From Candidatus Moraniibacteriota bacterium (GTDB lineage Bacteria > Patescibacteriota > Minisyncoccia > Moranbacterales > GWC2-37-73): a stretch of 64,000 bases of DNA. The stretch spans positions 74,634 to 138,633 of the forward strand of contig JAAXUC010000002.1 of the NCBI GenBank assembly GCA_013336225.1, in the 5' to 3' direction. The notes beneath the pieces were generated by a model, which did not search any database, was not told the DNA's origin, and saw only the letters and a program-made list of their open reading frames with translations. Shown in pieces: positions 8,238 through 36,830 of the stretch (positions are counted from its first letter, which is position 1; every line of letters begins with the position of its first letter). A program made the translations under genes and the position numbers.

Positions 8238-8245
8238 CATATCGT

Positions 8246-8366: not shown

Positions 8367-8406
8367 AATACAGCAATTTGTTTCAAGAATTAAGTTTGTT
8401 AATAAT

Positions 8407-13014: not shown

Positions 13015-13050
13015 GAAAAGTCGCCCCTGTGATGGAGGGCGACTTTTCAT
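13015..13050 (+). terminator. Rho-independent terminator
   Basis: AAAAGTCGCCC-CTGTGATGGA-GGGCGACTTTTCATTTTC. Confidence 0.7.
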
Positions 13051-13072
13051 TTTCCGGATTGTTTGTTATAAT
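13045..13072 (+). promoter_or_regulatory. Candidate sigma70-type promoter of the pilin gene (extended -10)
   Basis: TTTTCA, 16-nt spacer, then TGTTATAAT (TGn + TATAAT) about 35 nt upstream of the ATG at 13108. Confidence 0.3.
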
Positions 13073-13107: not shown

Positions 13108-13575
13108 ATGAAAAATACAAAATCTGGTTTTACATTGGTTGAGCTTTTATTGGTAATCGGTATCATTGCCACTTTGGCGGTGGTTGTTTTTGTGGCGCTT
13201 GATCCAGCAAAAAGATTTGCTGATGCCCGCGACGCAAGAAGAACATCGGATGTGGAAACAATCTTAAGCGCAGTTCATCAATATGTTATTGACAGCAAAG
13301 GCTCTTTTCCTGCTGGTATTGATAATGCTGAAAGACAAATTGCAACAGCAACTGACACTTGTGGAGTTTCTGGGGGTGGATGTGGTGATGGAGGAGAAAC
13401 TGGTTGTGTTGACTTGAGCGGTCAGTTAGCAAAATATCTTAAAGAAATTCCATATGATCCAACTGCCGGAATCGGGCCAGATCATTCTCACTATACAATC
13501 GTGAAGGATGATAACGGAATTGTCACTGTGCGTGCTTGTGATGCGGAAGGTGGAGTGATTTCTGTTTCGCGGTAG
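13108..13575 (+). CDS. pilA: Type IV pilin (prepilin with class III signal peptide), candidate major pilin
   Basis: MKNTKSG then FTLVELLLVIGIIATLAVVVFVAL: a canonical G/F cleavage site, Glu at +5 and a hydrophobic N-terminal helix. 155 aa with a Cys-rich C-terminal region. It has its own promoter and terminator. Confidence 0.8.
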   Translation: MKNTKSGFTLVELLLVIGIIATLAVVVFVALDPAKRFADARDARRTSDVETILSAVHQYVIDSKGSFPAGIDNAERQIATATDTCGVSGGGCGDGGETGCVDLSGQLAKYLKEIPYDPTAGIGPDHSHYTIVKDDNGIVTVRACDAEGGVISVSR

Positions 13576-13616
13576 TCTTCATTGGAAAAATTAAAATCGT
13601 ATCTTGTTTGAAATAG

Positions 13617-13651
13617 AAAAAAGAGCTCAGATGTTACCGAGCTCTTTTTTG
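13617..13651 (+). terminator. Rho-independent terminator
   Basis: AAAAAAGAGCTC-AGATGTTACC-GAGCTCTTTTTTGG. Confidence 0.7.
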
Positions 13652-13663
13652 GTGTAATCTTTT

Positions 13664-14599
13664 TTGGTGAAATTTAAAAAAATATGGTATTATGTAAATG
13701 AAGAGAAATGTAAAAAACAAAAAAAACAAAAAAATATGGGAAAAATATCAAAAATAACCGAATCAGGAGAATCAATTGAGAAATTTTCTCCAAATGAGCA
13801 GGTTGCAGCAGAGGCAAAGACGACAAAGAAGTCCATAGGTACAACTTCAGAGAAAAAAAACAGTTGGGGAAAGAAAATTGCTTCAGTGGGATTGCTTTTG
13901 GTGGTGCTTGGATTGGGAGCAACTTCATATTATTTTTATCATAAATATAAATCTGTGCCCTCAGTGGAAACAGATGAGATCATTATTAAGGTTGGTAAAT
14001 TGATGGAGCTGCCAAGCAATGAAATTCCAACCTTGGCCACCGTGACTGACAAAGAAAAAATGAAAGAACAGCCATTTTTTGCAAAGTCTGAAAATGGAGA
14101 CAAAGTTCTGATCTATACTAAAGCGCAAAAAGCCATTTTGTATCGTCCATCACTAAACAAGATTGTGGAAGTGATGCAGCTTTCAATCAGTAAACCGACA
14201 GATGCAAAAACTGTGCAAAATGTTGATCAAGCAATCCCGCAAGAACAAGCAGTTCAGGATCAGGCTCAAACAACTGCGCCAGCGCAAAATGCTGAAAATC
14301 AAGCGCCAGTTGTGGCTGCTGAGCAAACAAAATTGAAAGTCGCCATATATAATGGCAGTGGCATCAAGGGAAAGGCCGGCACTTTGGCTGATGAAATTGT
14401 GAAAATTGAGGGATTGGAAGTGACTGAAAAAACCAATGCAACAGGCGGCTATGACAGCACGTTGGTGGTTGATCTTGCTGGTGGCAATGAAGTGATGGCG
14501 CAAAAGATTGCCGATGCTCTTGGTGCTGCAGTCGGACAATTGCCGGAAGGAGAAATGAAACCAGCAGCTGATGTGTTAGTGATTGGAGGGAAAAATTAA
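13664..14599 (+). CDS. Membrane protein with a C-terminal LytR_C (LytR/CpsA/Psr C-terminal) domain
   Basis: The C-terminus KLKVAIYNGSGIKGKAGTLADEIV...GYDSTLVVDLAGGNEVMAQKIADALGA...ADVLVIGGKN fits the LytR_C consensus (hhV.NGtg..G.A......L...G..........t.I.......A..la..lG.....lvvvG.d). It has one TM helix and a Lys-rich N-terminus. An alternative start lies at 13736. Confidence 0.6.
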   Translation: MVKFKKIWYYVNEEKCKKQKKQKNMGKISKITESGESIEKFSPNEQVAAEAKTTKKSIGTTSEKKNSWGKKIASVGLLLVVLGLGATSYYFYHKYKSVPSVETDEIIIKVGKLMELPSNEIPTLATVTDKEKMKEQPFFAKSENGDKVLIYTKAQKAILYRPSLNKIVEVMQLSISKPTDAKTVQNVDQAIPQEQAVQDQAQTTAPAQNAENQAPVVAAEQTKLKVAIYNGSGIKGKAGTLADEIVKIEGLEVTEKTNATGGYDSTLVVDLAGGNEVMAQKIADALGAAVGQLPEGEMKPAADVLVIGGKN

Positions 14600-14618
14600 A
14601 TATAAATTTACAAATCAC

Positions 14619-15032
14619 ATGACTTTTACTTTCATTTGGGATGAAAAATATAGTGTAGGGGTGGCAGAAATTGATGAGCAGCACAAGAAGTTGGTGGCAA
14701 CTATTGCCAAATTAAACGAAGCTATTTCTAAGGCTAAATCCATTGAAAAAGATGTGAAGAGCGTGCTAACTGAACTGAAGCAATACGTGGAGGTTCATTT
14801 CAGCACGGAAGAGAAATATTTCAAGGAATTTAATTATGAATTTGCTGAACAACATATCTTGGAACACCGAGAGTTTGCTAAAAAAATTGAATCTTTTTAT
14901 GAAAAATATGCAGGAAATGAAGTTGAAATTTCATTTGAGTTGATTGATTTTTTGGAGGATTGGCTGCTGGATCACATGATGACCCAAGATCGAAAATATA
15001 TGCATTGCTTCGCTGAAAATGGCTTGAAATAA
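14619..15032 (+). CDS. Bacteriohemerythrin (hemerythrin-like metal-binding protein)
   Basis: WDEKYSVGVAEIDEQHKKL...HFSTEEKYF...H..EH..F...WLLDHMMTQDRKY carries the His/Glu diiron ligand pattern of the hemerythrin domain. The ORF track starts at a TTG (14583). The ATG at 14619 is more plausible. Confidence 0.7.
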   Translation: MTFTFIWDEKYSVGVAEIDEQHKKLVATIAKLNEAISKAKSIEKDVKSVLTELKQYVEVHFSTEEKYFKEFNYEFAEQHILEHREFAKKIESFYEKYAGNEVEISFELIDFLEDWLLDHMMTQDRKYMHCFAENGLK

Positions 15033-15053
15033 AAAATTAAATAAAATCTTCAA

Positions 15054-16607: not shown

Positions 16608-16629
16608 ATTGATGTTGTTTGGATAATTT

Positions 16630-19431
16630 TTGCTTGTGATGGTAATAAAATCTCTCAAAAATAAAATAACAATTTTCGTGCTGTCAGCCATTTTATTTTT
16701 TGGCTTTTTGGCTGTGGCTTGGGTGGCTGCTTATGGCAATGAATCTTTGGTCGCTCAAAAAAAGAGTGAAACCGTTCTTGCCTTGGTGAGCATGGCTGAT
16801 CATGTTGAGGAATGGATGGATTTGGAACGTTATTCAGTTGAACTTACTGCGCACAACATTGTCCTGGTTGATGCCTTGGAGCAAGGAGAAAATTTGCTGG
16901 AAAATAATAAGTTGAGAATTTTTCTGGAGGAGCAGAAAAGAAAGGTTTCAGCGAAAGACATTGTGGTTCTCGATATAAATGGGAATGTATTGACAGCTAC
17001 CGGTGGGATATATTTCGGTCATAATTTCGGTTATCGGAATTATTTCAAGGATGCGCTGGCAAACGATGTTGCCTCTGAAGTTGTGATTGGTGCAATCAGT
17101 AATGATTCAAACTTTGTTTTCTCTCATCGCGTGGTGAATCGCGAGGGGAAAGCTTTAGGTGTGGCACTGCTCATCACTAAAACTGAAACCGCTATCAAGT
17201 CATTGTTTGGTGAAATGCAAGATGCTGACCAGCACAAACATATGTTGGTGGATGACAATGGAATAGTAGTGGCTTCAAATGACAACGAGATGGCTTTGAA
17301 AAGCATTGGGCAATTGCCATATCAAACTTTGCAAGATATCAATGCGGATAAGCGCTACGGCGACAGAGAAATCCAGTCTTTGCGATATAATAATGTGCTT
17401 GATGCGATTAAGGAAAAAGCGGGAGTCAGTGTATATGATTTTTTTGATAATAATAATGGAAAACAGGAGTTGGTTGGAGTGGCGCCAGTCCATAAATATC
17501 CCTATTCCGTGGTGATGGAGATTCAAGAAGTCGATCTTATTTGGCAGATTGCCAGGGTTTATTATACGCTTGGATTGGCCGTTCTGATTTCTTGTCTTTT
17601 GGCGGCAGTGGTCATCTATTACATGCTTAACAAGTTTCTGTCGCCACTGAAAGAATTGCGCAGAGTGGCTGAAAAAATAAGTAAAAATGAACTTGATTGC
17701 GAACTTTTCTTGAAAACGGGTGATGAGCTTGAGGAACTTAGCACAGCTTTCAATGTGATGATCAAGGGCCTGATGAGGACTAAAGATGACATTGAGAAGA
17801 GAGTTGAATTGCAAACTAGTGACATCAGAAATAAGCAGCTTGCCTTGGAAAATCAGGAAAAAGCTGCCATGAATATTCTGGAAGATATCACGGGAGAGAA
17901 AGAGAAGTCTGAAAAAATGGCCATTGATCTGGAGAAATTCAAACTTGCCATTGAAAACACTAATGATCAGGTTGTAATCACGGACAAGGATGGGGTTATT
18001 GTTTATTCAAACCCTGCCATGACAAAAATTACGGGATATTCAATGGAAGAAGCTATTGGAAAAACGCCTGCGCTTTGGGGAGGACAAATGAGTGATCAAT
18101 ATTATGGGGCTTTTTGGAAAACTATTAAAGAAAAGAATGAGGAATATGAAGGTGAATTGTATAATAAACGTAAAAATGGTTCCACTTTCTTGGCACATAT
18201 TCATGTTGCTCCGATTCTTGGCGATGGCGAGGAGGTTAAGTTCTTCGTGGGAGTCGTGCGTGACATTTCCAAAGAACGTGAATCGCAGCTGCAACTCAAG
18301 AAGGATGCCGAAGACTTGAAATCGGCAAATAGTTTGATTGCAAGCCAAAAGGAACGAGCTGAAAATATTTTGGCTTATTTGCAGTCAATTGGTGATGGCG
18401 TGATTGCAACTGATCTTGAGGGCAAAATCATCTTTTTCAATGAGGCAGCTGAGAAATTGACTGGTGCCACAAATGAAGAGGCTGTTGGAAAAAAATCAAA
18501 CGAAATTGTTTTTATTGCCGAAGAAAAGAATTCAAAAGTGTTGCAAGATTTGATTGGCGACGCACTTGCTGGCGGACATGTTCGAAAAAAAGTAGGCGAA
18601 CATTACTTGATAAAATCCAAGGAAGACTTGATTATGGCAATATCTTTCAGGCTTTCATTTATTTTTGATAAAAACAATAAGAAGCAAGGTTGCATTCTCG
18701 TGATGCGCGACGTGAGTGAACAAAGAGAAATCGAAAAAACTAAAGATGATTTCCTCTCTGTTGCAGCTCATCAATTAAGAACGCCGCTCACAGGTGTGAG
18801 GTGGTCCTTGGAGATGCTTTTGGATGGAGATTTGGGCGAATTGCCAGAGGCCGCGAAAGAGGCTTTGGATCAAATTTCCAAAAACAATAAGCGCTTGATC
18901 TTGTTGGTGAATGATTTGTTGGATGTTTCCAGAATCAATATGGGCAAATCAAAGGAGGAGCCTATTCCAGTGGATGTTTCTAGTGCATTGCAAGAATCTA
19001 TCAATACCTTGCACAGCTTGGCTGAAGAAAGGGGAATTAATATTGTGTTTGAACAAAAGGCAAAAGAAATTCCGATGATCAATATTGGTCCAAAACATCT
19101 TTTTCAATCTTTTGAAAATCTTCTGTCTAATGCTATAAAATATAGCCCAAATGGTGGAGCCGTTAAAGTTTTATTGGATTTTAAAAAGAATAAAGTTGTT
19201 ATCAATGTTTCTGATAATGGCATTGGAATTCCGAAAGAAGATCAAGAAAAAATCTTTGGCAAGTTTTTTAGAGCTTCAAATGCAGCGCTCAAAGAAACAG
19301 AGGGTTCCGGATTGGGATTGAATGTGGTAAAATCATTTATAGAAGATTTCGGTGGGAATGTTTCTTTTGTGAGCAAGGAAGGCAAAGGAACAACGTTCAC
19401 AATCGAATTACCAACTGATTTTAAGTCGTAA
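16630..19431 (+). CDS. Sensor histidine kinase (Cache-like sensor, HAMP, PAS x2, HisKA, HATPase_c)
   Basis: 933 aa. The H-box is SVAAHQLRTPLTGVRW. N, G1 and G2 boxes are present (LSNAIKYSP, DNGIGIP, GSGLGLNVV). HAMP-like and PAS regions lie between two TM segments and the kinase core. Confidence 0.8.
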   Translation: MLVMVIKSLKNKITIFVLSAILFFGFLAVAWVAAYGNESLVAQKKSETVLALVSMADHVEEWMDLERYSVELTAHNIVLVDALEQGENLLENNKLRIFLEEQKRKVSAKDIVVLDINGNVLTATGGIYFGHNFGYRNYFKDALANDVASEVVIGAISNDSNFVFSHRVVNREGKALGVALLITKTETAIKSLFGEMQDADQHKHMLVDDNGIVVASNDNEMALKSIGQLPYQTLQDINADKRYGDREIQSLRYNNVLDAIKEKAGVSVYDFFDNNNGKQELVGVAPVHKYPYSVVMEIQEVDLIWQIARVYYTLGLAVLISCLLAAVVIYYMLNKFLSPLKELRRVAEKISKNELDCELFLKTGDELEELSTAFNVMIKGLMRTKDDIEKRVELQTSDIRNKQLALENQEKAAMNILEDITGEKEKSEKMAIDLEKFKLAIENTNDQVVITDKDGVIVYSNPAMTKITGYSMEEAIGKTPALWGGQMSDQYYGAFWKTIKEKNEEYEGELYNKRKNGSTFLAHIHVAPILGDGEEVKFFVGVVRDISKERESQLQLKKDAEDLKSANSLIASQKERAENILAYLQSIGDGVIATDLEGKIIFFNEAAEKLTGATNEEAVGKKSNEIVFIAEEKNSKVLQDLIGDALAGGHVRKKVGEHYLIKSKEDLIMAISFRLSFIFDKNNKKQGCILVMRDVSEQREIEKTKDDFLSVAAHQLRTPLTGVRWSLEMLLDGDLGELPEAAKEALDQISKNNKRLILLVNDLLDVSRINMGKSKEEPIPVDVSSALQESINTLHSLAEERGINIVFEQKAKEIPMINIGPKHLFQSFENLLSNAIKYSPNGGAVKVLLDFKKNKVVINVSDNGIGIPKEDQEKIFGKFFRASNAALKETEGSGLGLNVVKSFIEDFGGNVSFVSKEGKGTTFTIELPTDFKS

Positions 19432-19448
19432 TAACTGTTGATACTATT

Positions 19449-19838
19449 ATGGAGAACAAATGCGAAGGACGAAAAGTGCTGGTAGCTGAAGACGATGTTT
19501 TTCTGTCTAATGTCTATAAGAGTAAATTGACCAAGGAGGGGTTTGAGGTTTTTATCGCCAAAAACGGGGAAGAAGCTGTTGAAATGGCCACAAAAAATAA
19601 ACCAGAGATCATTTTGCTGGATCTTATCATGCCGATTAAGAATGGTTTTGAAACATTGAAAGAATTGAAAGAATCAGCTGAAACTAAAGATATTAAGGTG
19701 GTTATCCTTTCAAATTTGAGTCAGGAAGAGGATGAGAAGAAGTTGTTGGCCATGGGTGCTATCGGTTATGTAGTAAAGGCCAATGTTTCTTTTCGCGAAA
19801 TCATTGAATTGGTCAAGCAGCATCTTGGTATTGAATAA
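19449..19838 (+). CDS. Response regulator, receiver domain only (CheY-like)
   Basis: 129 aa: KVLVAEDD...ILLDLIMP...K. No output domain. Confidence 0.8.
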   Translation: MENKCEGRKVLVAEDDVFLSNVYKSKLTKEGFEVFIAKNGEEAVEMATKNKPEIILLDLIMPIKNGFETLKELKESAETKDIKVVILSNLSQEEDEKKLLAMGAIGYVVKANVSFREIIELVKQHLGIE

Positions 19839-19852
19839 TTTAGGGTAAAAAT

Positions 19853-21556
19853 ATGAAATATTTGGCTTTCACAAATCAAGATATTGAAAAAATTCTTGGT
19901 GAGTCTGGCGTGGTTGATGAGGCAAAGGTTGCCAAAGCAGTGGCTAGTGCCAAGCTGGAAAATAGCTCACTTGCAGATGTCGCTGTCAATCAGGGGCTTG
20001 TTACTAATGAAGAATTGTCCAGATTGGTGGCGGATGCACTGGATATGCCATTTATGTCACTTGCTGGAAAACTTCCAACCAAAGAGACTTTGGCACTTAT
20101 TCCTGAATTAGTGGCCCGCAAGAAGCGCGTGGTGCCTTTTAGGTTGGATGAAAAGGGATTACATGTTGCAATGGCGGATCCCACTGATCTTGAAACACTC
20201 AATTTCATTGCTCGCAGGGAGGGCATGCATGCCATTGCCTATGCCACCACTGATCAAGATATTGATACTGTCCTGGAGCTGTATGGCGAAGGGTTGAACA
20301 ATTTGTTGGAAATAAAATCTGAAAAGTCTGGAAAAGTTGCTGGCAGCGAGGATGATTCTTCCATTATTCAGATTGTGAAAAAAGTTATTGTGGAGGCGTA
20401 TCGCAATCGCGCCTCTGATATTCATATTGAACCGCGCGAAGAAAGCGACAGTGTGATCAGATTTCGTATTGATGGAATTTTGCATGACGTCACCTTGATT
20501 CCAATGGAATTGCATGCCCAAATCATTTCGCGCATCAAAGTGATGGCAAAGTTGCGAACTGATGAACATCAAACTCCACAGGATGGAAAAATTTCTTTCA
20601 AGCTGGAGGATGACAATTCTGAAATGGATTTGCGTGTTTCAATCGTGCCGGTGACAGAAGGAGAAAAAGCAGTGCTGCGTCTTTTGGCTGAACGTTCTCG
20701 TCAATTTTCATTGGCTGGCATTGGCCTTAGTGAAAATAATCTGAAAAAAATTCAAGAGGCTTATGAAAAACCATATGGCATGGTTTTGTCGACTGGACCG
20801 ACTGGTTGTGGAAAAACCACAACATTGTATGCCATTTTGAAACTTTTGAATAAACGGCACGTGAACATCATGACCATTGAAGATCCGGTGGAATATGACA
20901 TTGATGGAGTGAGCCAAATTCAAGTCAATCCCAAAGCAAAGCTTACTTTTGCCTCAGGTTTGCGCAGCATTTTGCGTCAAGATCCGAACATCATTTTGGT
21001 GGGAGAAATTCGTGATCAAGAAACGGCTGGCATTGCAATCAATTTGGCGCTTACGGGACATCTGGTTTTATCAACCTTGCATACTAATGACAGCGCCACG
21101 GCCATTCCACGTTTCATTGATTTGGAAGTGGAACCATTTCTGATTGCTTCGACTGTCAGTGTCATCATCGCGCAACGTTTGGTGCGTAAAATCCATGATG
21201 GCTGCAAAGTGAGCGAGGAATTTAAAGCGGCTGACATCGCCAAGAAAATTGGTTGGGAGCTTACTGAAAAAATGTTTGGTGTCAAAAAATCCAATCCGGA
21301 TGGTACTGTGCGACTGTATCAAGGCAAAGGTTGTGAAGCTTGTCAGGGAACAGGTTTTCAGGGCAGAATCGGAATTTTTGAAGTGATGGTCATGGATGAT
21401 CAAATGCGACAAGCAATTTCTCAAAACAAAGATGCGGGCTTTTTGGAGGAGTTGGCGAAAAAGTCAGGCATGATTGGTCTCTTGGAAGATGGCTTGGGAA
21501 AAGTTAACATGGGAATTACAACTATTGATGAGATTTTGGGTGCCACGAAATTATAG
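19853..21556 (+). CDS. pilB: Type IV pilus assembly ATPase PilB/GspE family (locus 1)
   Basis: 567 aa with an N-terminal GspII_E-like domain. Walker A is GPTGCGKTT. The ATPase core begins ASDIHIEP and a tetracysteine motif follows (C...C...CEACQGTGFQGR). Confidence 0.85.
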   Translation: MKYLAFTNQDIEKILGESGVVDEAKVAKAVASAKLENSSLADVAVNQGLVTNEELSRLVADALDMPFMSLAGKLPTKETLALIPELVARKKRVVPFRLDEKGLHVAMADPTDLETLNFIARREGMHAIAYATTDQDIDTVLELYGEGLNNLLEIKSEKSGKVAGSEDDSSIIQIVKKVIVEAYRNRASDIHIEPREESDSVIRFRIDGILHDVTLIPMELHAQIISRIKVMAKLRTDEHQTPQDGKISFKLEDDNSEMDLRVSIVPVTEGEKAVLRLLAERSRQFSLAGIGLSENNLKKIQEAYEKPYGMVLSTGPTGCGKTTTLYAILKLLNKRHVNIMTIEDPVEYDIDGVSQIQVNPKAKLTFASGLRSILRQDPNIILVGEIRDQETAGIAINLALTGHLVLSTLHTNDSATAIPRFIDLEVEPFLIASTVSVIIAQRLVRKIHDGCKVSEEFKAADIAKKIGWELTEKMFGVKKSNPDGTVRLYQGKGCEACQGTGFQGRIGIFEVMVMDDQMRQAISQNKDAGFLEELAKKSGMIGLLEDGLGKVNMGITTIDEILGATKL

Positions 21557-21593
21557 ATATATATAAAAAACAAGAGCTATGCTAGATTAGGTG

Positions 21594-21725
21594 CTTTTGA
21601 TTTCTTATTTCCTTTTTTAGGAACATTTTTGACTGAAATTCATAGTCAAAAAACTTACTCGCTCTCGCTGCGTAGGTCCTAAAAAGAAAATAAGCAAATC
21701 AAAAGGTGAGTTAATTTTTGAAATC
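21594..21725 (+). repeat. Family B structured repeat, copy 1 (intergenic pilB-pilC)
   Basis: Outer arms TTTGATTTCTTATTTCCTTTTTTAGGAAC and GTAGGTCCTAAAAAGAAAATAAGCAAATCAAAA are complementary. The inner hairpin is TTTTTGACTGAAATTCATAGTCAAAAA. The core is CTCGCTCTCGCTGC. Homologous to 24344-24474 and 30273-30416. Confidence 0.7.
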
Positions 21726-21730
21726 ATATA

Positions 21731-22816
21731 TTGCCCATAATCAAAAAAATAAATATGAAAATATTCTCAGGACTCTCATACTTAGAAAAACTTTTTTTCA
21801 TCAAGCATCTTTCGATGTTTTTGAAATCAGGCATTCCGCTGGATGAAGCACTTGAAACATTGGCTGAAGGTGAGCAGAAAAGTTCTATTAGCAAAGTCGC
21901 GTTGTCAGTCAGGGCTCAGATTCAAAATGGGCAGCCACTGCATAAGGCTTTTGCCAAGGAATCCAGTTCATTTGATCTATTTTTCATTTCCATGGTGGAA
22001 ATTGGAGAAGTGTCTGGCACGCTGGAAAAAAGTTTGGATTTTTTGGTGGCCAAAATCACCAGAGAGGCGACGCTGCGAAAAAAAATTCAAGCCATGCTAT
22101 ATTATCCAGCTGTGGTGGTTGGCGCTGCAATCGTGATTGGAGGTTTTGTGAGTTTTTTCGTGTTGCCAAAATTGGGGGACATGTTCAAATCGTTTGATGT
22201 GCAATTGCCTCTTATAACCAGGATATTATTGGCTTTTGCTAATTGGGTGAAAGATTATGGTGCAATTGCGATGATATCTTTCATTGCGTTGCTGATTGTT
22301 TTTCGTGTGCTTATCGCTGCTTGGACGCGTCTGCGATTTTTTTGGCATAAAATCAAATTCAACCTGCCCATTACAGGCAAAGTCATCTTGGGCTCAGAGC
22401 TTTCGGCATTTTTTCGAAACATTGGAATCATGCTTTCCAGTGGACTTTCTTTGGAATATGCACTTGCCACTGAATCTAAAATTTCAGACAACCTTGTCAT
22501 GAAAAAAGTGGCAGCTGATTTGCACATGGCGGTGACTCAGGGGCGGCGCATGGGGGAAGAGTTGAAAAGTGAAAACAACACGATTTTCCCTCAGCTTTGC
22601 GCAAGAATGATTACGGTGGGTGAGATGTCTGGAAAACTGGAAGAATCATGCATGTATTTGGCTGATTATTTTGAAGATGAAACTGAGGTGCAAGCAAAAA
22701 ACATGGCTGCAATTTTGGAGCCAGCCTTGCTTTTAGGCATCGGAGCGATCGTGGCTTTCATCGCAATGGCTGTTATTTTGCCTATCTATTCTTTGACTGG
22801 TTCCATTCGTCGCTAA
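21731..22816 (+). CDS. pilC: Type IV pilus platform protein PilC/GspF family (locus 1)
   Basis: 361 aa with two GspF-like repeats and 3-4 TM helices. It sits immediately downstream of pilB. Confidence 0.75.
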   Translation: MPIIKKINMKIFSGLSYLEKLFFIKHLSMFLKSGIPLDEALETLAEGEQKSSISKVALSVRAQIQNGQPLHKAFAKESSSFDLFFISMVEIGEVSGTLEKSLDFLVAKITREATLRKKIQAMLYYPAVVVGAAIVIGGFVSFFVLPKLGDMFKSFDVQLPLITRILLAFANWVKDYGAIAMISFIALLIVFRVLIAAWTRLRFFWHKIKFNLPITGKVILGSELSAFFRNIGIMLSSGLSLEYALATESKISDNLVMKKVAADLHMAVTQGRRMGEELKSENNTIFPQLCARMITVGEMSGKLEESCMYLADYFEDETEVQAKNMAAILEPALLLGIGAIVAFIAMAVILPIYSLTGSIRR

Positions 22817-22834
22817 GATGTTGAAAAAAGTTAA

Positions 22835-23290
22835 ATGTCAAAAGTTAAATGTCAAATATTGCATAAGCAGGGATTTACTTTAATCGAATTACTTTTGGTG
22901 ATTGCGCTTGTTTTGATCGTGAGTGTTCCAACCGCTGCTTTTTCCACGCATTTCATTTATCAAATGTCTGTGCGCGATGCCTCTGAAGGTTTGGTTGGAA
23001 TGCTGCAAGAAGCGCAAGCACTTTCAATGCTGGGCAAAGAGAATTCAGCTTGGGGCGTGAAAAAGCAATCAGGAAAATTGATTCTTTTTCGGGGAGAAGA
23101 TTTTTCAAATCGCGATCAAGCATTTGATCAAGCGTTGAGCATAAATTCGCATGTGAATATGATAGGTTTTGATGAAATGAGTTTCTCGCGCTATGGAGGA
23201 TTTCCTTTGCAGCCAACTGGCTCAATTGTTGTGGCTTGGGGGAATGTGAACGAAATATTTAAATTAAATTCGGAAGGAGTTTTTGAATAA
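22835..23290 (+). CDS. Prepilin-type minor pilin (pseudopilin)
   Basis: ...HKQG then FTLIELLLVIALVLIV: a class III signal with G/F cleavage and Glu+5. Confidence 0.7.
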   Translation: MSKVKCQILHKQGFTLIELLLVIALVLIVSVPTAAFSTHFIYQMSVRDASEGLVGMLQEAQALSMLGKENSAWGVKKQSGKLILFRGEDFSNRDQAFDQALSINSHVNMIGFDEMSFSRYGGFPLQPTGSIVVAWGNVNEIFKLNSEGVFE

Positions 23291-23298
23291 TTATCAGC

Positions 23299-23769
23299 AT
23301 GAAAAAAGGAATATCACAAAAGCGAGGTTTTTCGGTGCTAGAAGTCATTTTAGCAGTGGCACTTTTTTCCATTTTTTCCACTACTGCTGTTTCCTTTGTG
23401 CTTGAATCGATGCAAGTGCAAGCTCAAGCCAGTCAATTTGAAAATGCCTCACTGTATGCCGAGGATGGCTTGGAAAAAATAAGAGCAGTGCGAGATGTTT
23501 CATTTGATGAATTGGTGGATGGGTCTGAATATGGATTGAACTTCAATGCTGGTAAGTGGGAATTGAAAAATGGCAGTGATGAATCTGAAATATACAAAAG
23601 AATCATCACAATCGAAACAGCCAAAAGAGACGGTGAGCTGAATATTGTTTCGGAAGACGGAGCAGATGATTTGAATATGAAAAAAATAATAGTAGATGTT
23701 TCCTGGAAAAATGCCACGGGCGAAAATGTTTCAACTCAGCTAGTGACTTATCTTTCTCGTTGGAAGTAA
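23299..23769 (+). CDS. Prepilin-type minor pilin (pseudopilin)
   Basis: MKKGISQKRG then FSVLEVILAVALFSIF: a class III signal. Confidence 0.7.
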   Translation: MKKGISQKRGFSVLEVILAVALFSIFSTTAVSFVLESMQVQAQASQFENASLYAEDGLEKIRAVRDVSFDELVDGSEYGLNFNAGKWELKNGSDESEIYKRIITIETAKRDGELNIVSEDGADDLNMKKIIVDVSWKNATGENVSTQLVTYLSRWK

Positions 23770-24293
23770 AAAATATGACAAATAAAACAAAAAAGGGCTT
23801 TACCTTCATTGAAACTATATTATATATAGCAATTTCGTCAGTTGTGGTTGGCGTGCTTTTTGCCTATGGTTGGAATATGGTCAGCGCGCGCACTAAAGCT
23901 GCCACCATGCGAGACACTGCTGCAAATGCCAGGCTCATCATGTTGCGCCTCAACAATGAAATTCGCATGGCAACTGATATTGATAAAAATAATTCTGTTT
24001 TTGAGGGCGAAAATGGAAAAATATCGCTGACCACTCCTCAAGGAAAGATCATGATCGAATCAATTGGAGATAGGATTTCCATTGCCAGAGGGGAAAATTC
24101 CCCGCAATTTCTTTCCGGAGAAAATGTGCGCGTGAGAAATTTTCAATTATCCAAACAAGAAAATGACGCTGGGAAAGTTCAATATGTGGGATTTTCTTTC
24201 ACAGTGGAAGCCTATTATCCTGAAGCGCTTAACAGTTATGAATACAATTATTCATTGCCAATTAATTCGGGAGCGGAGGTGAGAAGTCAGTAA
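23760..24293 (+). CDS. Prepilin-type minor pilin (pseudopilin)
   Basis: ...NKTKKG then FTFIETILYIAISSVVVG: a class III signal. The start is probably the ATG at 23775. Confidence 0.7.
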   Translation: MEVKNMTNKTKKGFTFIETILYIAISSVVVGVLFAYGWNMVSARTKAATMRDTAANARLIMLRLNNEIRMATDIDKNNSVFEGENGKISLTTPQGKIMIESIGDRISIARGENSPQFLSGENVRVRNFQLSKQENDAGKVQYVGFSFTVEAYYPEALNSYEYNYSLPINSGAEVRSQ

Positions 24294-24343
24294 AATTAAA
24301 TTATGTATGCATATAAAGGATGCATTGTTCCGTCATTAAGTAT

Positions 24344-24474
24344 TTTGCTTTGCTTATTTCCTTTTTTGACACATTTTTGACTGAAAATCATAGTCAAAAA
24401 ACTGATTCGCTCTCGCTGCATAGGGTCTAAAAAGAAAATAAGCAAAGCAAAATGGTGTGGATTAATTTTTGAAA
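24344..24474 (+). repeat. Family B structured repeat, copy 2 (between minor-pilin genes)
   Basis: Same arm/hairpin/core arrangement as 21594-21725, with scattered substitutions. Confidence 0.7.
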
Positions 24475-24488
24475 GCGCATGTTGCAAT

Positions 24489-24905
24489 ATGATCATATAT
24501 GAATCAGAAAATAAAAAAGGTTACGTGGTTATTTCAACAGTCTTGATCTTGCTTTTTGTTACCTTGGGAATCGCTGCCACGCTTTCATTTCTTTCAATTG
24601 GAAGCTCAAAAGTTTCGCAGTCTTTTGGCGAAGGGCGGCAAGCGTTGTTTCTTTCTGAATCTTGCCTGGAGGAAGGATTGTTGCGACTCAAAACTGACGT
24701 TGCCTATGCTGGCGGAACAATCAATTTTCCTGAAGAAAAAGTGTGTCATCTCAACATCACGAATGATGGCCAAATATATACGATGCAAGCCTACATGCTA
24801 GGGCAAAAAAAATATGTACGTTCTCTTGAGGTACATGTGAATATTGTTGATGGCATTTTGCAAATAATAAGTTGGGAAGAGAAACCTTTTGTGATAGAAT
24901 ATTAA
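24489..24905 (+). CDS. PilX-like minor pilin (PilX_N-type hydrophobic N-terminus)
   Basis: KKGYVVISTVLILLFVTLGIAATLSFLSIG...RQALFLSESCLEEGLLRL resembles the PilX N-terminal domain pattern. 138 aa. Confidence 0.5.
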   Translation: MIIYESENKKGYVVISTVLILLFVTLGIAATLSFLSIGSSKVSQSFGEGRQALFLSESCLEEGLLRLKTDVAYAGGTINFPEEKVCHLNITNDGQIYTMQAYMLGQKKYVRSLEVHVNIVDGILQIISWEEKPFVIEY

Positions 24906-24906
24906 T

Positions 24907-26268
24907 ATGTTTTTTCGCCATCACATCACTACCATCTTTGTAACTCGCGGCAAGATCACTTCCGCTGTTTTTTCGACTGGTGGAAAAAACATCAAAGCAG
25001 CGGCTGTGTATGATTGGAACGAGGAAAATCTCGCCCTTGTTCTTGCTGACATTGCAGCGCATGGTCCAAATGTGGTCAGGGTTGTTTTTGGAGAAGAATT
25101 CTCCTATGTTACCACACTTGATTCTTCCAAGGGTGATAGAGGAAGCATTTTGGAAAAGGCGCGCGAAGCGATTCCTGAGGAGCTGGGGGATAATTGGGAT
25201 TTTCGCAAAGAAAAGGATCAGCTCTTTTCCTCACAAGTGATTGCCGTTCAAGCTCAGCTGCTGAACATGTTTATTGAAAAATTGAAAGAAGCCGGCTTGC
25301 GCGTGGAAGCCATGGAGCCTCAATCAGTGGCAATTGCTCGCTTGCTTCCAAAAACTGGCTTGTTTCTTTTTGCCGTGAATGACGAGAAGTTTTTGATGGG
25401 GGCAGTGAGAAATGGCACAGTCATTGGAACTTTTGTGGCTGCAAAAAGCGATGACGCTTCAATGTTGGCGGGCTTTGTTGCTTCAGTGCGAAAAAAATGC
25501 AAAGAAGAACTTAGCACAGTCTTGATCGATAAATATATGCAAGTTGGGGACGATGTTTTTTTGGCCAATGGCTTGCAGCCTGAAATCATGGAGCTTGACC
25601 CCCTGTATTCAATTGCAGTAAAGAAACATCTTGTTGGTAGTGATTCACATGTCTTGAATATTTTGCCAGTTGATAAGAAAATTCTCAAGAAGCAGGCAAC
25701 AGAAAAATATTTATCAAAAATTGAAAACACTGCAACAGTGCAAGCTCCTGCTCGCTTTTCATTGCGCGAAAAAATATTGGCAATCTTTTTTGTTATAGGT
25801 CTTGTCGCAAGCGGATTCGTGTTGCTTAAAAAAATGCCACCCAAGAAACAAAGCATCTCATTGATTGCAACAGAAAAAAAGCAAGAAGTTGCCATGCAAA
25901 ATGATGTTATTCAAAATCCTTCAGCAACTGTGGAACAGCAAGCTTCTGCCGAAAAGGTTGTGCAAGATGTCGTTTCAACAAAAAGGCCTCAAGATTTGCA
26001 AATTTTGATTCTAAACGGCGGCGCAGCTGTTGGTAGCGCAGCAAAAGTTAAGGATATTTTGGTAGCCAAGAAGTATGTGAATATTGACGCTCAAAATGCG
26101 GAAAATAAGGATAATGTTGGAGTTGTCCTGTATTATCAAGCACAAAATGTGGAAAATATGGCTCAAATAAAAGCAGATTTACAAAAAACATATCCTAAAA
26201 TAGTAGCCAAGGAGGCGTCCTCAGCTGAGGAAAAATCTTCGGAAATCGTCATTATATTGGGGAAATAG
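24907..26268 (+). CDS. PilM-like actin-fold domain, TM helix, C-terminal LytR_C domain fusion protein
   Basis: The N-terminal ~280 aa resemble PilM (…SQVIAVQAQLLNMFIEKLKEAGLRVEAMEPQSVAIARLL…). A TM helix ILAIFFVIGLVASGFVLL follows. The C-terminus LQILILNGGAAVGSAAKVKDIL...VGVVLYY...IVIILGK matches LytR_C. Confidence 0.55.
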   Translation: MFFRHHITTIFVTRGKITSAVFSTGGKNIKAAAVYDWNEENLALVLADIAAHGPNVVRVVFGEEFSYVTTLDSSKGDRGSILEKAREAIPEELGDNWDFRKEKDQLFSSQVIAVQAQLLNMFIEKLKEAGLRVEAMEPQSVAIARLLPKTGLFLFAVNDEKFLMGAVRNGTVIGTFVAAKSDDASMLAGFVASVRKKCKEELSTVLIDKYMQVGDDVFLANGLQPEIMELDPLYSIAVKKHLVGSDSHVLNILPVDKKILKKQATEKYLSKIENTATVQAPARFSLREKILAIFFVIGLVASGFVLLKKMPPKKQSISLIATEKKQEVAMQNDVIQNPSATVEQQASAEKVVQDVVSTKRPQDLQILILNGGAAVGSAAKVKDILVAKKYVNIDAQNAENKDNVGVVLYYQAQNVENMAQIKADLQKTYPKIVAKEASSAEEKSSEIVIILGK

Positions 26269-26381: not shown

Positions 26382-26453
26382 CGGGGCGTGGTGTCAACGG
26401 TAGCACGAGTGATTTGGGATCATTTAGACAGGGTTCGAATCCCTGCGCCCCGA
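26382..26453 (+). tRNA. tRNA-Pro (anticodon TGG)
   Basis: Cloverleaf fold: acceptor CGGGGCG/CGCCCCG, D-stem GTGT/GCAC, anticodon stem AGTGA/TCATT with loop TTTGGGA, T-arm CAGGG-TTCGAAT-CCCTG, discriminator A. CCA is not encoded. Confidence 0.85.
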
Positions 26454-26456
26454 CAT

Positions 26457-26507
26457 AAAACAAAAACAGAGAGGACTTTTTGAGTCCTCTCTGTTTTTGT
26501 TTTATTT
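26457..26507 (+). terminator. Strong Rho-independent terminator after tRNA-Pro
   Basis: AAAACAAAAACAGAGAGGACT-TTTTG-AGTCCTCTCTGTTTTTGTTTTATTTT. Confidence 0.75.
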
Positions 26508-34391: not shown

Positions 34392-34457
34392 AAATATTAA
34401 TAAATGTTATAATTGCTCAAGTGCAGACAGGATTTGCATTTGTTGCATCAAATTAGT

Positions 34458-34835
34458 ATGGCTGATAAAAAACTGCTGATTATCGAAGATGATTTGGTTT
34501 TGCAAAAAGCACTCAGTGAATATCTGATTGCGGAAGGTTTCAATGTTTTATCAGCAGGAGATGGTGAAACTGGTGTGCAGATGGCGCTTGGTGAATTGCC
34601 AGATTTGATTTTGCTCGACATTGTTTTGCCGAAAAAAGATGGATACACTGTACTTACGGAAGTTAGAGCTAATGAAGCTACAAAGCATGTTCCAATTGTG
34701 CTGCTGACTAATCTAGGAAGCATTTCTGACGTGGAAAAAGCCATTGAATTGGGCGCAACAACCTATCTCGTGAAAGCTGATTACAAATTGGAAGAAGTGA
34801 TGATGAAAGTTAAGGAAATTTTGAATATCAAATAA
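34458..34835 (+). CDS. Response regulator, receiver domain only
   Basis: MADKKLLIIEDD...LILLDIVLPKKDG...K. No output domain. The ORF track starts 15 codons upstream. Confidence 0.75.
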   Translation: MADKKLLIIEDDLVLQKALSEYLIAEGFNVLSAGDGETGVQMALGELPDLILLDIVLPKKDGYTVLTEVRANEATKHVPIVLLTNLGSISDVEKAIELGATTYLVKADYKLEEVMMKVKEILNIK

Positions 34836-34945
34836 AGCCATAAAGCCTCTAGTCAACCAAGCAGGCAGACAAAAAAATACAAAAACACAAAAAACCCCAG
34901 TTAAATTTTCGTCAAAAGCGAATTTAACGGGATAAATAAAAATAA

Positions 34946-36694: not shown

Positions 36695-36700
36695 GCAAAA

Positions 36701-36827: not shown

Positions 36828-36830
36828 CAC

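What the first reader, a model, noticed from the sequence alone, without database searches (positions are those of the whole stretch)
13108..26268. Type IV pilus locus 1 carries its own embedded sensory module: hemerythrin, kinase-less PAS membrane sensor, hybrid sensor kinase and a CheY-like receiver
The gene order is pilin, LytR_C protein, bacteriohemerythrin, a 517-aa two-TM sensor with a periplasmic domain and a cytoplasmic PAS but no kinase, a 933-aa Cache/HAMP/PAS/HisKA/HATPase kinase, a receiver-only response regulator, then pilB, pilC, four pseudopilins, a PilX-like protein and a PilM-LytR_C fusion. All are co-directional with short spacers. A receiver-only regulator cannot bind DNA, so the output is probably protein-protein control of the PilB motor or platform (a PilG/PilH-like arrangement). 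The hemerythrin plus PAS pairing suggests an O2/NO/redox input gating pilus activity. That is plausible for an episymbiotic or attachment-dependent lifestyle, although the lifestyle itself is an inference.
Basis: partly seen in the sequence, partly recalled or inferred. Interest (0 to 1): 0.55.

Follow-up and report, generated by a model that had tools for sequence, protein, structure and literature searches.

The report
Pilus gene cluster with built-in sensor
A type IV pilus gene cluster of an uncultured Moranbacteria (CPR) bacterium carries, directly in front of its motor gene, a sensor kinase, a detached co-sensor, an oxygen/iron-binding hemerythrin and an output-less receiver. The kinase-receiver-motor order is conserved in relatives and gives testable candidates for how these tiny symbionts control their pili.

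Summary
Window 13108-26268 is one co-directional type IV pilus cluster of a Candidatus Moranbacteria MAG: pilin, TM-LytR_C, bacteriohemerythrin, CHASE4-HAMP-PAS sensor without output, dCache-HAMP-PAS-PAS-HisKA-HATPase kinase, receiver-only regulator, PilB, PilC, three pseudopilins, a PilX-like protein and PilM-like-TM-LytR_C.

Corrections:
- The kinase is not hybrid.
- There are three canonical pseudopilins, not four.
- The pilin has its own terminator.
- Two larger gaps hold a repeated ~135-nt element.

Kinase, then receiver, then PilB is conserved in 6 of 7 PilB relatives (59-74% identity) and in 2 of 3 receiver-centred contexts, against 2 of 40 non-CPR PilB loci. The second pilus locus in the window has the same triad, which is also seen in Saccharibacteria.

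The accessory sensors vary. The CHASE4 protein always sits directly before the kinase, and it exists fused to such a kinase elsewhere. It is therefore best read as a detached sensor of that kinase.

The hemerythrin has an intact diiron site but occurs in only 3 loci.

Direct control of PilB by the receiver is plausible, with precedents in EmvR, DrdR and PixG/H, but it is untested.

All these CPR kinases carry His-Gln instead of His-Glu/Asp. In model kinases that change abolishes autokinase activity but not phosphatase activity.

Verdict: a new variant of a known kind, of moderate interest.

The parts
13015..13048 (.). G+C-rich hairpin after the upstream gene (bidirectional terminator-like); 5' boundary of the cluster
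13044..13072 (+). Promoter-like site (TTTTCA-17-TGtTATAAT) 36 nt before the pilin start
   Evidence: consensus match only
13108..13575 (+). Major-pilin candidate, 155 aa, with prepilin motif KSG/FTLVE
   Evidence: Pfam N_methyl 26.1 bits; NCBIfam IV_pilin_GFxxxE
13617..13650 (+). Intrinsic-terminator-like hairpin (AAAAAAGAGCTC-loop-GAGCTCTTTTTT) after the pilin gene
   Evidence: not found by the simple scan because the loop is 10 nt
13664..13693 (+). Promoter-like site (TTGGTG-18-TGgTATTAT) in front of the LytR_C gene and the sensory genes
   Evidence: read from the sequence; inference
13736..14599 (+). Bitopic membrane protein with a C-terminal LytR_C domain (287 aa from ATG 13736; the ORF opens at 13664)
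   Evidence: Pfam LytR_C 28.7 bits. Orthologues sit next to the pilin in L002, L083 and L084
14619..15032 (+). Single-domain bacteriohemerythrin, 137 aa, with intact diiron ligands
   Evidence: It is 47% and 44% identical to the hemerythrins in L083 and L169
15054..16607 (+). Output-less membrane sensor: TM, CHASE4, TM, HAMP, PAS, then a conserved C-terminal helix (NxLMVxRELKMxELKK). Read as a detached co-sensor of the next kinase
16630..19431 (+). Sensor histidine kinase, 933 aa: TM, dCache-like, TM, HAMP, PAS, PAS, HisKA (H714-Q715), HATPase_c. Not hybrid
19449..19838 (+). Receiver-only response regulator, 129 aa (D58, S88, K110)
19853..21556 (+). PilB-type assembly ATPase, 567 aa (MshEN + T2SSE)
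21590..21725 (+). Copy 1 of a ~135-nt structured repeat with long terminal inverted repeats, in the pilB-pilC gap
21755..22816 (+). PilC platform protein, short form (353 aa, ComGB-like length)
   Evidence: relatives have 350-353 aa
22835..24293 (+). Three pseudopilin genes (22835-23290, 23299-23769, 23760-24293)
   Evidence: Pfam N_methyl for each
24337..24480 (+). Copy 2 of the ~135-nt repeat, in the gap before the 138-aa gene
24489..24905 (+). 138-aa PilX/GspK-like non-canonical pseudopilin (hydrophobic N-terminus, no Glu5)
   Evidence: No Pfam or NCBIfam match. ORFs of 122-152 aa sit at the same position in relatives
24907..26268 (+). PilM-like cytoplasmic domain, TM, LytR_C fusion; 453 aa
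   Evidence: hhalign to a PilM profile: probability 95.8%, E 7e-9. LytR_C 30 bits. The single-sequence AF2 model was unusable
26382..26454 (+). tRNA-Pro(TGG)
26457..26503 (+). Strong terminator hairpin (20 pairs plus a T-run); 3' boundary
33405..38054 (+). Parallel module at the head of pilus locus 2: short intramembrane-type kinase (33405-34391, H102-Q103), receiver-only regulator (ORF 34413-34835, probable start 34458), PilB2 (34946-36694), PilC2 (36831-38054)
   Evidence: Same order in Saccharibacteria L007 and L009

Best explanation
Window 13108-26268 is a monoderm-type type IV pilus cluster of a Candidatus Moranbacteria (CPR) bacterium. It has no PilT, PilQ or PilN/O. A dedicated phosphotransfer module is built into it.

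Proposed pathway:
1. Signals are sensed outside the cell by the kinase's own Cache-like domain and by a separate CHASE4-HAMP-PAS membrane protein.
2. That CHASE4 protein is a detached sensor half of the same kinase family. It most likely talks to the kinase through its conserved C-terminal helix.
3. The kinase sets the phosphorylation state of D58 of the 129-aa receiver, by phosphorylating it, dephosphorylating it, or both.
4. The receiver has no output domain and is encoded 14 nt before pilB, so it acts by protein-protein contact on the pilus machine. The most likely target is the PilB ATPase; PilC or PilM are alternatives. This would switch pilus assembly on or off.
5. The hemerythrin is an optional accessory input (O2, iron or redox) used by only some lineages.

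Shown here: the domain content, the intact catalytic and ligand residues, the operon-like layout, the conservation of the kinase-receiver-PilB order, and the fused and split forms of the CHASE4 sensor and the kinase.

Inferred: the contact between the CHASE4 protein and the kinase, the target of the receiver, the sign of the regulation, and the signals.
For: Organism: the window's PilB is 100% identical to a protein of a 'Candidatus Moranbacteria bacterium' MAG.

Layout:
- Spacers are 14-22 nt from the hemerythrin gene through to pilB.
- There is no terminator-like site between the sensory genes and pilB.
- The only internal terminator-like hairpin follows the pilin gene.

Conservation of kinase + receiver-only gene directly upstream of PilB-PilC:
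- It is present in the contexts of P0003, P0005, P0008, P0015, P0019 and P0027. It is absent in the context of P0012.
- It is also present in the receiver-centred contexts of P0128 and P0236 and in the CHASE4-centred context of P0245.
- In Roizmanbacteria L003 the order is kinase, receiver, PilC, with PilB 3.8 kb further on.
- All 120 best receiver homologues are receiver-only proteins of 117-159 aa. At least 20 of them share a contig length with a listed PilB homologue.
- Background: 2 of 40 non-CPR PilB loci.
- Locus 2 repeats the triad with paralogues that are 38%, 41% and 32% identical. Saccharibacteria L007 and L009 share that arrangement.

CHASE4 protein:
- At least 16 cluster representatives at 50% identity are collinear and 509-539 aa long, so the lack of an output domain is not a truncation.
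- The C-terminal helix is the best conserved part. In L169 it is retained although the PAS domain is lost.
- In all 7 contexts where the downstream gene is visible, the next kinase gene is of the HK1 type.
- In L088, L089 and L169 that kinase has no membrane sensor of its own. In L089 and L169 the two genes overlap.
- Longer collinear homologues are CHASE4-HAMP-PAS-(PAS)-HisKA-HATPase kinases. One of them, P0357, carries an HK1-type transmitter.

Precedents for a receiver acting on PilB: EmvR (PMC11973254), DrdR (PMC13507683) and the PATAN receivers of Synechocystis.
Against: - No physical evidence exists for a receiver-PilB or a CHASE4-kinase contact. Gene adjacency is compatible with other targets.
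- One close relative (P0012, 66% PilB identity) has the pilus genes without any sensory gene.
- Two kinase-receiver pairs of the same family are not followed by pil genes: L086 and the short contig L089.
- In L003 the receiver gene precedes pilC, not pilB.
- The kinase has Gln715 where HisKA kinases need Glu or Asp for autophosphorylation. The direction of phosphate flow is therefore uncertain.
- The sample of relatives is small, about 13 contexts. Several come from the same metagenome.
Confidence: 0.55

Rival explanations
1. The kinase works mainly as a signal-controlled phosphatase. The receiver would be phosphorylated by acetyl phosphate or by another donor, and the sensors would control how fast it is dephosphorylated. 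The target is still the pilus machine, so this is a variant of the main explanation and not exclusive of it.
For: - HK1 and HK2 have H-Q-L-R/K-T in place of H-E/D-x-x-T/N. The same H-Q is found in 11 of 11 kinases of this type in related CPR loci and in 0 of 34 other H-box kinases in the fetched loci.
- In CrdS (E372Q), NtrB (E140Q) and HK853 (E261A), loss of the acidic residue abolishes autokinase activity but not phosphatase activity (PMC3510030).
- HK853 is the closest solved homologue.
- The Thr of the phosphatase motif (T718) is kept.
Against: - The ATP-binding domain is well conserved (HATPase_c 104.8 bits), which argues for retained ATP use.
- A naturally conserved Gln may be compensated by other residues.
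- No biochemical data exist for any H-Q kinase of this group.
Confidence: 0.25
2. The two-component pair is a general envelope or nutrient sensor that merely travels with the pilus genes. Its receiver would act on targets unrelated to the pilus.
For: - The same kinase-receiver family occurs without pil genes in L086, and apparently also in L089.
- P0012 has the pilus genes without the pair.
- The neighbours upstream of the kinase differ widely: PstS-like PBP, SSF-like membrane protein, FIST, PAS-only proteins.
- The kinase core resembles WalK, PnpS and PhoR.
Against: - The pair sits between pilus genes, not at the edge of the cluster.
- The order is kept down to 53-59% identity and across Moranbacteria, other Patescibacteria and Roizmanbacteria.
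- A paralogous pair heads the second pilus locus, and also heads such loci in Saccharibacteria.
- The background rate is 2 of 40.
Confidence: 0.15
3. The receiver is a phosphate sink, or a DivK-like allosteric partner of kinases, or the first step of a relay. The real output would go through another regulator.
For: - Relatives carry a second PAS-only protein plus a receiver-only gene, or a lone receiver, at the far end of the cluster: L002, L084, L169.
- Single-domain receivers such as PilH have been proposed to act as phosphate sinks (review PMC11656802).
Against: - No Hpt protein and no second regulator is encoded in locus 1 of the window.
- The receiver gene is the one invariably placed next to the kinase.
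Confidence: 0.12
4. One reading: hemerythrin plus PAS form an O2/NO/redox input that gates pilus activity.
For: - The hemerythrin has all seven diiron ligands and scores above the NCBIfam bacteriohemerythrin cut-off.
- It has the same position, directly before the CHASE4 gene, in the window and in L169. It lies in the same cluster in L083. The three proteins are 44-47% identical.
Against: - It is present in only 3 of about 13 related loci. In the others, different accessory proteins take that place or none does.
- It is a free-standing protein with no signalling domain.
- The PAS domains show no recognisable heme, flavin or LOV signature. The HK1 PAS1 has 'TPALWGGQ' where LOV domains have 'GRNCRFLQG' (read from the sequence, compared with my own knowledge of LOV motifs).
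Confidence: 0.2
5. PilS-PilR-like transcriptional control: the pair regulates transcription of the pilin or pil operon.
For: - Two-component systems embedded in pil clusters classically regulate pilA transcription, as PilSR does.
- The pilin gene has its own promoter-like and terminator-like sites.
Against: - The receiver has no DNA-binding or AAA+ domain. All 120 closest homologues are also receiver-only.
- No transcription factor gene lies in the cluster.
Confidence: 0.08

Closest known systems
EmvR (Xanthomonas oryzae) and DrdR (X. campestris): receiver-only regulators that bind PilB
   Same: These are output-less receiver proteins that act post-translationally on the PilB (and PilT) ATPase. 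The phospho-acceptor Asp is needed for function (PMC11973254, PMC13507683).
   Different: - EmvR and DrdR are orphan genes, not encoded next to pilB or next to a dedicated kinase.
- DrdR has two receiver domains.
- The organisms are diderm Proteobacteria with PilT.
- Here the receiver is operon-embedded with its kinase, directly before pilB, in a CPR bacterium.
- The interaction is not shown here.
PixG/PixH, PixE and LsiR of Synechocystis (PATAN-receiver regulators acting on PilB1)
   Same: Phosphorylation-dependent receivers that contact the pilus extension motor (PMC11181946 and bioRxiv 10.1101/2021.06.11.447907).
   Different: Those carry a PATAN domain and belong to chemotaxis-like or photoreceptor systems with a CheA-type kinase. 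Here there is a 129-aa bare receiver and a HisKA transmembrane kinase.
Pil-Chp system (PilG/PilH, ChpA, PilJ) of Pseudomonas
   Same: CheY-like single-domain receivers controlling type IV pilus function.
   Different: No CheA-, CheW- or MCP-like gene is present in the locus. The kinase is a classical sensor kinase. The 'PilG/PilH-like arrangement' is therefore only a loose functional analogy.
PilS-PilR
   Same: A two-component system encoded inside pil clusters. The locus-2 kinase, like PilS, has only membrane segments as its sensor.
   Different: PilR is an NtrC-type sigma-54 activator with AAA+ and HTH domains. The regulators here have neither.
HK853-RR468 of Thermotoga maritima
   Same: This is the closest solved homologue of both the kinase core (E 6e-37) and the receiver (E 1.4e-19). 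RR468 is also a receiver-only protein.
   Different: HK853 has the canonical H-E box, whereas HK1 has H-Q. HK853 has no Cache, PAS or CHASE4 partner. I know of no pilus link for it.
Single-chain CHASE4-HAMP-PAS-HisKA-HATPase kinases (for example P0357, P0380, P0313)
   Same: They are collinear with the 517-aa sensor over CHASE4, HAMP and PAS. P0357 continues into an HK1-type PAS-HisKA-HATPase with the same SAHQLRTPL box.
   Different: In the window the sensor and the transmitter are separate proteins. The transmitter protein has additionally acquired its own Cache-HAMP-PAS sensor.

Membership tests
Two-component system (HisKA kinase + receiver) | HisKA domain with a phospho-accepting His, and an HATPase_c ATP-binding domain | tested here: met
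   HisKA 62.2 bits, HATPase_c 104.8 bits, H714 in FLSVAAHQLRTPL
Two-component system (HisKA kinase + receiver) | Acidic residue (E/D) next to the His, in the H-E/D-x-x-T/N motif needed for autokinase activity | tested here: not met
   Q715 in HK1 and Q103 in HK2, and the same in 11 of 11 related CPR kinases. The role of the acidic residue is described in PMC3510030. T718 of the motif is present
Two-component system (HisKA kinase + receiver) | Receiver with an acidic pocket, a phospho-acceptor Asp, a Ser/Thr and a Lys | tested here: met
   E14, D15, D16, D58, S88, K110. These are invariant or nearly invariant in 29 homologues
Hybrid histidine kinase | Receiver domain fused to the kinase | tested here: not met
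   No Response_reg match in the 933-aa protein. HATPase_c ends at residue 929
Pil-Chp chemosensory system (PilG/PilH) | CheA-type kinase (ChpA), CheW (PilI) and MCP (PilJ) encoded with the CheY-like receivers | tested here: not met
   Pfam scans of every ORF of locus 1 and of most ORFs of the window show none
PilS-PilR | NtrC-type regulator with a sigma-54 AAA+ domain and an HTH domain | tested here: not met
   The receivers are 129 and about 125 aa and match Response_reg only
PATAN-receiver regulators (PixG type) | N-terminal PATAN domain | tested here: not met
   The receiver domain spans residues 10-122 of 129
Single-domain receivers that bind PilB (EmvR type) | Physical binding to PilB and an effect on its ATPase activity | not testable with these tools
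   No complex prediction or experiment is available. Only adjacency (a 14-nt spacer) and conservation
Bacteriohemerythrin | Four-helix protein with seven diiron ligands (H, H, E, H, H, H, D) | tested here: met
   All ligand positions align with DcrH-Hr 2avk. NCBIfam NF033749 scores 126.7 bits against a cut-off of 84
Type IV pilus / type IV filament cluster | PilB-type ATPase, PilC platform, prepilins with a class III signal motif, and a PilM-like protein | tested here: met
   T2SSE 421.7 bits, T2SSF 175 bits, four N_methyl proteins, PilM by hhalign 95.8%
Type IVa pilus with retraction (twitching type) | PilT retraction ATPase; PilN and PilO; PilQ secretin | tested here: not met
   None in locus 1. 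PilB-PilT-PilC clusters of other CPR lack the kinase-receiver pair
MshE-type c-di-GMP-binding PilB | N-terminal c-di-GMP binding motif | tested here: inconclusive
   NCBIfam c-di-GMP_motif scores 20 bits against a cut-off of 38. The MshEN fold is present
CHASE4 sensors | Extracytoplasmic CHASE4 domain between two membrane segments | tested here: met
   Pfam CHASE4 98.6 bits (cut-off 26.2). The profile matches the solved diguanylate cyclase sensor 9p50 at E 1.5e-18

The most novel reading that the evidence does not exclude
CPR bacteria may gate each of their non-retractile pilus machines post-translationally through its own operon-embedded signalling pair. That pair would consist of an atypical His-Gln kinase/phosphatase and a bare receiver that docks on the PilB motor or platform. 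Inputs would be exchangeable, supplied by detachable sensor proteins: the CHASE4 co-sensor with a docking helix, hemerythrin, PstS-like, FIST and SSF-like proteins.

The pair would be ancient, duplicated together with the pilus systems, and shared by Moranbacteria, Roizmanbacteria and Saccharibacteria. It would be the decision point for attachment to a host cell.
Probability: 0.3. Interest if true: 0.7.

Novelty: new variant of a known kind. Interest (0 to 1): 0.5.

Why it matters
Type IV pili are central to how CPR/Patescibacteria attach to their hosts. The recent Saccharibacteria study names the regulation of extension and retraction as an open question, and it does not mention any kinase or regulator (PMC11623550).

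This analysis names concrete candidates, all conserved next to the motor gene:
- a kinase;
- a bare receiver;
- a detached co-sensor.

A paralogous pair heads a second pilus locus, and that arrangement also occurs in Saccharibacteria, a group with cultivated members in which pilin genes have already been targeted experimentally. The question becomes directly testable there.

Two further points matter beyond pili:
- The natural His-Gln kinases are a test case for the kinase/phosphatase balance of HisKA enzymes.
- The fused, overlapping and separate forms of the CHASE4 sensor and the kinase form a clean example of a split sensor kinase.

Tried and rejected
- A scan of genome contigs with the single PilB sequence found no relative.
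- The scan with a PilB alignment used universal Walker-type patterns. It returned a phylogenetically random set of PilB loci, useful only as a background set and for a few CPR loci.
- The AlphaFold2 single-sequence model of the PilM-like-LytR_C protein was unusable (pLDDT 39). I used hhalign on loci-derived alignments instead.
- BLASTP of that protein against PilM of locus 2 was only marginal (E 0.02).
- A metagenome scan for the core of the repeated element gave no hit.
With six sequences it returned mostly generic PAS proteins, and only L089 was informative.
- Rfam found nothing in the locus except tRNA-Pro. The weak matches to the repeat element are far below their thresholds.
- c-di-GMP binding by the PilB N-terminus is not supported (20 bits against a cut-off of 38).
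- Literature searches for CPR pili together with kinases or regulators returned nothing describing this arrangement.
- I considered that the 517-aa sensor is a frameshifted or truncated kinase. I rejected this because at least 16 divergent homologues keep the same length and the same conserved C-terminal helix.
- I considered a truncated PilC. I rejected this because all relatives have 350-353 aa and the protein aligns to ComGB from its position 3.

Full report
**What is there.** The ORF map and the Pfam/NCBIfam scans confirm a run of co-directional + strand genes from 13108 to 26268:
- pilin (155 aa, prepilin motif KSG/FTLVE);
- a bitopic protein with a C-terminal LytR_C domain (probable start 13736);
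- a 137-aa bacteriohemerythrin (probable start 14619);
- a 517-aa membrane protein with CHASE4 (98.6 bits), a weak HAMP, one PAS and no output domain;
- a 933-aa kinase with a weak dCache_1 match, HAMP, two PAS, HisKA and HATPase_c;
- a 129-aa receiver-only protein;
- PilB (MshEN + T2SSE);
- a short PilC (353 aa);
- three N_methyl pseudopilins;
- a 138-aa non-canonical pseudopilin-like protein;
- a 453-aa protein with a C-terminal LytR_C domain.

The N-terminal half of the 453-aa protein is PilM-like. A profile of it and five orthologues aligns to a PilM profile with probability 95.8% and E 7e-9. The single-sequence structure model was useless (pLDDT 39).

The window's PilB is 100% identical to a protein of a 'Candidatus Moranbacteria bacterium' MAG, on a contig of 139,649 bp.

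**Corrections to the observation.**
- The kinase is not hybrid, because it has no receiver domain.
- There are three canonical pseudopilins plus one PilX/GspK-like protein.
- 'Short spacers' holds for the sensory genes and pilB (14-22 nt), but not everywhere.
- After the pilin gene there is a terminator-like hairpin (13617-13650: GAGCTC stem, U-run). A promoter-like site with an extended -10 follows at 13664-13693. The pilin is therefore probably its own transcript, and the rest starts or reads through there.
- The cluster is bounded by a hairpin at 13015-13048 on the 5' side. On the 3' side it is bounded by tRNA-Pro (26382-26454) and a strong terminator (26457-26503).
- The two large internal gaps each hold one copy of a ~135-nt structured repeat (see 'Other things seen').

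**Conservation.** I looked at gene neighbourhoods of PilB homologues.

| PilB homologue | Identity to window PilB | Kinase + receiver-only gene directly upstream of PilB-PilC |
|---|---|---|
| P0003 | 74% | yes |
| P0005 | 70% | yes |
| P0008 | 68% | yes |
| P0012 | 66% | no sensory genes |
| P0015 | 62% | yes |
| P0019 | 61% | yes |
| P0027 | 59% | yes |

Starting from the receiver instead, all 120 best homologues (50-70% identity) are receiver-only proteins of 117-159 aa. At least 20 of them share a contig length with a listed PilB homologue. Of three contexts opened, two show kinase-receiver-PilB-PilC (P0128, P0236) and one does not (P0170/L086, whose downstream genes are not pilins).

In a Roizmanbacteria genome (L003) the order is kinase, receiver, PilC, with PilB 3.8 kb further on.

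As a background I used 80 PilB loci from many phyla. Among the 40 non-CPR loci with at least 3 kb of upstream sequence, only two (both Deltaproteobacteria) have a kinase plus a small receiver in front of pilB.

**The same theme in locus 2.** The second pilus locus of the window starts with four genes:
- a 328-aa kinase that has only two membrane segments as its sensor;
- a receiver-only protein;
- PilB2;
- PilC2.

Receiver, PilB and kinase core are 38%, 41% and 32% identical to their locus-1 counterparts. Saccharibacteria loci L007 and L009 have the same short kinase-receiver-PilB2 arrangement, and L015 has the kinase only. CPR clusters of the PilB-PilT-PilC type have no such pair.

**The 517-aa 'kinase-less' sensor.**
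- It is a real family. At least 16 representatives at 50% identity are collinear and 509-539 aa long.
- Their most conserved stretch outside the domains is the C-terminal helix NxLMVxRELKMxELKK.
- In all seven contexts where the downstream gene is visible, the next kinase gene is of the HK1 type. These are the window, P0003, P0245, P0008, P0128, L088, L089 and L169.
- In L088, L089 and L169 that kinase has no membrane sensor of its own. In L089 and L169 the two genes overlap.
- In L169 the CHASE4 protein has lost its PAS domain but kept the helix, which is 67% identical.
- Longer collinear homologues are single-chain CHASE4-HAMP-PAS-(PAS)-HisKA-HATPase kinases. One of them, P0357, carries an HK1-type transmitter.

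Fused, overlapping and separate forms of the same two parts are classical evidence that the parts work together. I therefore read the 517-aa protein as a detached sensor of the neighbouring kinase. In the window that kinase also has its own Cache-like sensor.

**The hemerythrin.** All seven iron ligands align with DcrH-Hr, and the NCBIfam bacteriohemerythrin score is above its cut-off. Orthologues that are 44-47% identical lie in the clusters of L083 and L169. In L169 the gene has the same position, directly before the CHASE4 gene.

Most related loci lack it. In that region they have a PstS-like binding protein, an SSF-like membrane protein, FIST or PAS-only proteins, or nothing. It is best seen as one of several exchangeable accessory inputs. 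The proposed O2/NO/redox signal is plausible but weakly supported.

**The receiver and its likely target.** The phospho-acceptor pocket (E14, D15, D16, D58, S88, K110) is intact and conserved. The closest solved relative is RR468, itself a stand-alone receiver. The kinase core is closest to its partner HK853.

With no output domain, the receiver must act by protein contact. Its gene ends 14 nt before pilB, and 1-57 nt before pilB in relatives.

Published cases show that bare or PATAN-linked receivers can bind PilB and change its ATPase activity or localisation:
- EmvR (PMC11973254);
- DrdR (PMC13507683);
- PixG/PixH and PixE (PMC11181946 and a 2021 bioRxiv preprint).

PilB is therefore the best guess, with PilC or the PilM-like protein as alternatives; L003 places the receiver gene before pilC. 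Nothing here tests the contact.

This is not a PilG/PilH (Chp) system, because no CheA-, CheW- or MCP-like gene is present. It is not PilS-PilR, because there is no AAA+ or HTH domain.

**An unexpected feature.** Both kinases of the window have Gln directly after the phospho-accepting His: HK1 has H714-Q715 and HK2 has H102-Q103. All 11 related CPR kinases in the fetched loci have the same. All 34 other H-box kinases found in the remaining fetched loci have Glu.

In CrdS (E372Q), NtrB (E140Q) and HK853 (E261A), loss of this acidic residue abolishes autophosphorylation but leaves phosphatase activity (PMC3510030). The ATP-binding domain is well conserved. Either these enzymes use another catalytic arrangement, or they are phosphatase-biased. 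This leaves the direction of signalling open.

**Other things seen.**
- A ~135-nt element occurs twice, in the same orientation, in the two large gaps of the cluster (about 21590-21725 and 24337-24480).
  - The two copies are 86% identical.
  - They share an exact 30-mer core found nowhere else in the window.
  - They have long terminal inverted repeats with one compensatory change.
  - The folding z-score is -4.5.
  - There is no Rfam family for it and no copy in the fetched loci or in the metagenome collection.
  - It looks like a miniature mobile or REP-like element, but a regulatory role is not excluded.
- Locus 1 has no PilN or PilO. It does have two LytR_C-domain bitopic proteins.
- PilC is of ComGB length.

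**Literature.** Searches of the held library found no description of kinase-receiver pairs in CPR pilus loci. The Saccharibacteria pilus study and the CPR protein-family study mention neither kinases nor regulators. A 2024 review of PilB cofactors does not cover CPR.

**Verdict.** The module is embedded and conserved, and the receiver probably acts on the pilus machine, but the target, the signals and even the direction of phosphate flow are inferred. All parts belong to known families, and two-component control of pili is known. The operon-embedded kinase-receiver-PilB triad, the split CHASE4 sensor and the His-Gln kinases make it a new variant of a known kind, of moderate interest.

Noticed in passing
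window 21590-21725 and 24337-24480: A ~135-nt structured repeat occurs twice, both copies on the + strand, in the two largest intergenic gaps of the cluster. The copies are 86% identical and share an exact 30-mer core found nowhere else in the 64 kb. They have long terminal inverted repeats with one compensatory change (GATTT/AAATC against GCTTT/AAAGC). There is no Rfam family for it and no copy in 87 loci or in the metagenome collection. It is MITE- or REP-like, or a cis-regulatory element.
   Followed up: partly
window 18769-18774 (HK1 H714-Q715) and 33708-33713 (HK2 H102-Q103); L002, L003, L007, L009, L083-L087, L089, L169: All pilus-linked CPR kinases have His-Gln instead of the canonical His-Glu/Asp in the H-box: 11 of 11 in related loci, against 0 of 34 other kinases in the fetched loci. 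In model HisKA kinases this substitution gives kinase-minus, phosphatase-plus enzymes (PMC3510030).
   Followed up: partly
window 33405-44258: Pilus locus 2 begins with its own short kinase (two membrane segments, no sensor domain) and a receiver-only regulator. These are followed by PilB2, PilC2, pilins, a PilX-like protein and PilM/N/O. The same head arrangement occurs in Saccharibacteria L007 and L009.
   Followed up: partly
window 13617-13650 and 13664-13693: A terminator-like hairpin lies right after the pilin gene, followed by a promoter-like site with an extended -10. This suggests a separate, highly expressed pilin transcript and a second start for the sensory and assembly genes.
   Followed up: partly
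window 26382-26503: tRNA-Pro(TGG) sits between the last pilus gene and the strong terminator. A promoter-like site at 26331-26359 precedes it.
   Followed up: no
window 13736-14599 and 24907-26268: Locus 1 has no PilN or PilO but has two bitopic proteins with extracytoplasmic LytR_C domains, one of them fused to the PilM-like domain. They may replace the PilN/PilO alignment proteins. In relatives the PilM-like protein is 297-324 aa without LytR_C, except in L087 (501 aa with LytR_C).
   Followed up: partly
window 28811-30135 and 44492-45680: Each pilus locus is followed, at some distance, by an ECF-type sigma factor gene and then a small gene without any Pfam match (a possible anti-sigma factor).
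   Followed up: no
window 865-9009; L001 19130-21725: There is a family of roughly 350-480-aa paralogous proteins with Big_13 or fn3_5 domains upstream of the cluster. Similar proteins lie next to the pilus cluster of relative L001. They may be pilus-associated surface proteins.
   Followed up: no
L002 12207-13288; L084 16319-17370; L169 15859-16245: Relatives carry a second small PAS-only protein plus a receiver-only gene, or a lone receiver, at the far end of the pilus cluster. This is absent from the window.
   Followed up: no
contexts of P0003, P0005 (L083 4963-7125), P0008 and P0170 (L086 3425-5590): A roughly 715-721-aa membrane protein recurs directly upstream of the sensor or kinase genes in relatives. 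It is annotated SSF in L086. It may be another accessory input, and it is absent from the window.
   Followed up: no
window 32890-33405: A 515-nt intergenic region before locus 2 contains several G+C-rich palindromic stretches. There is no Rfam match at the gathering threshold.
   Followed up: no
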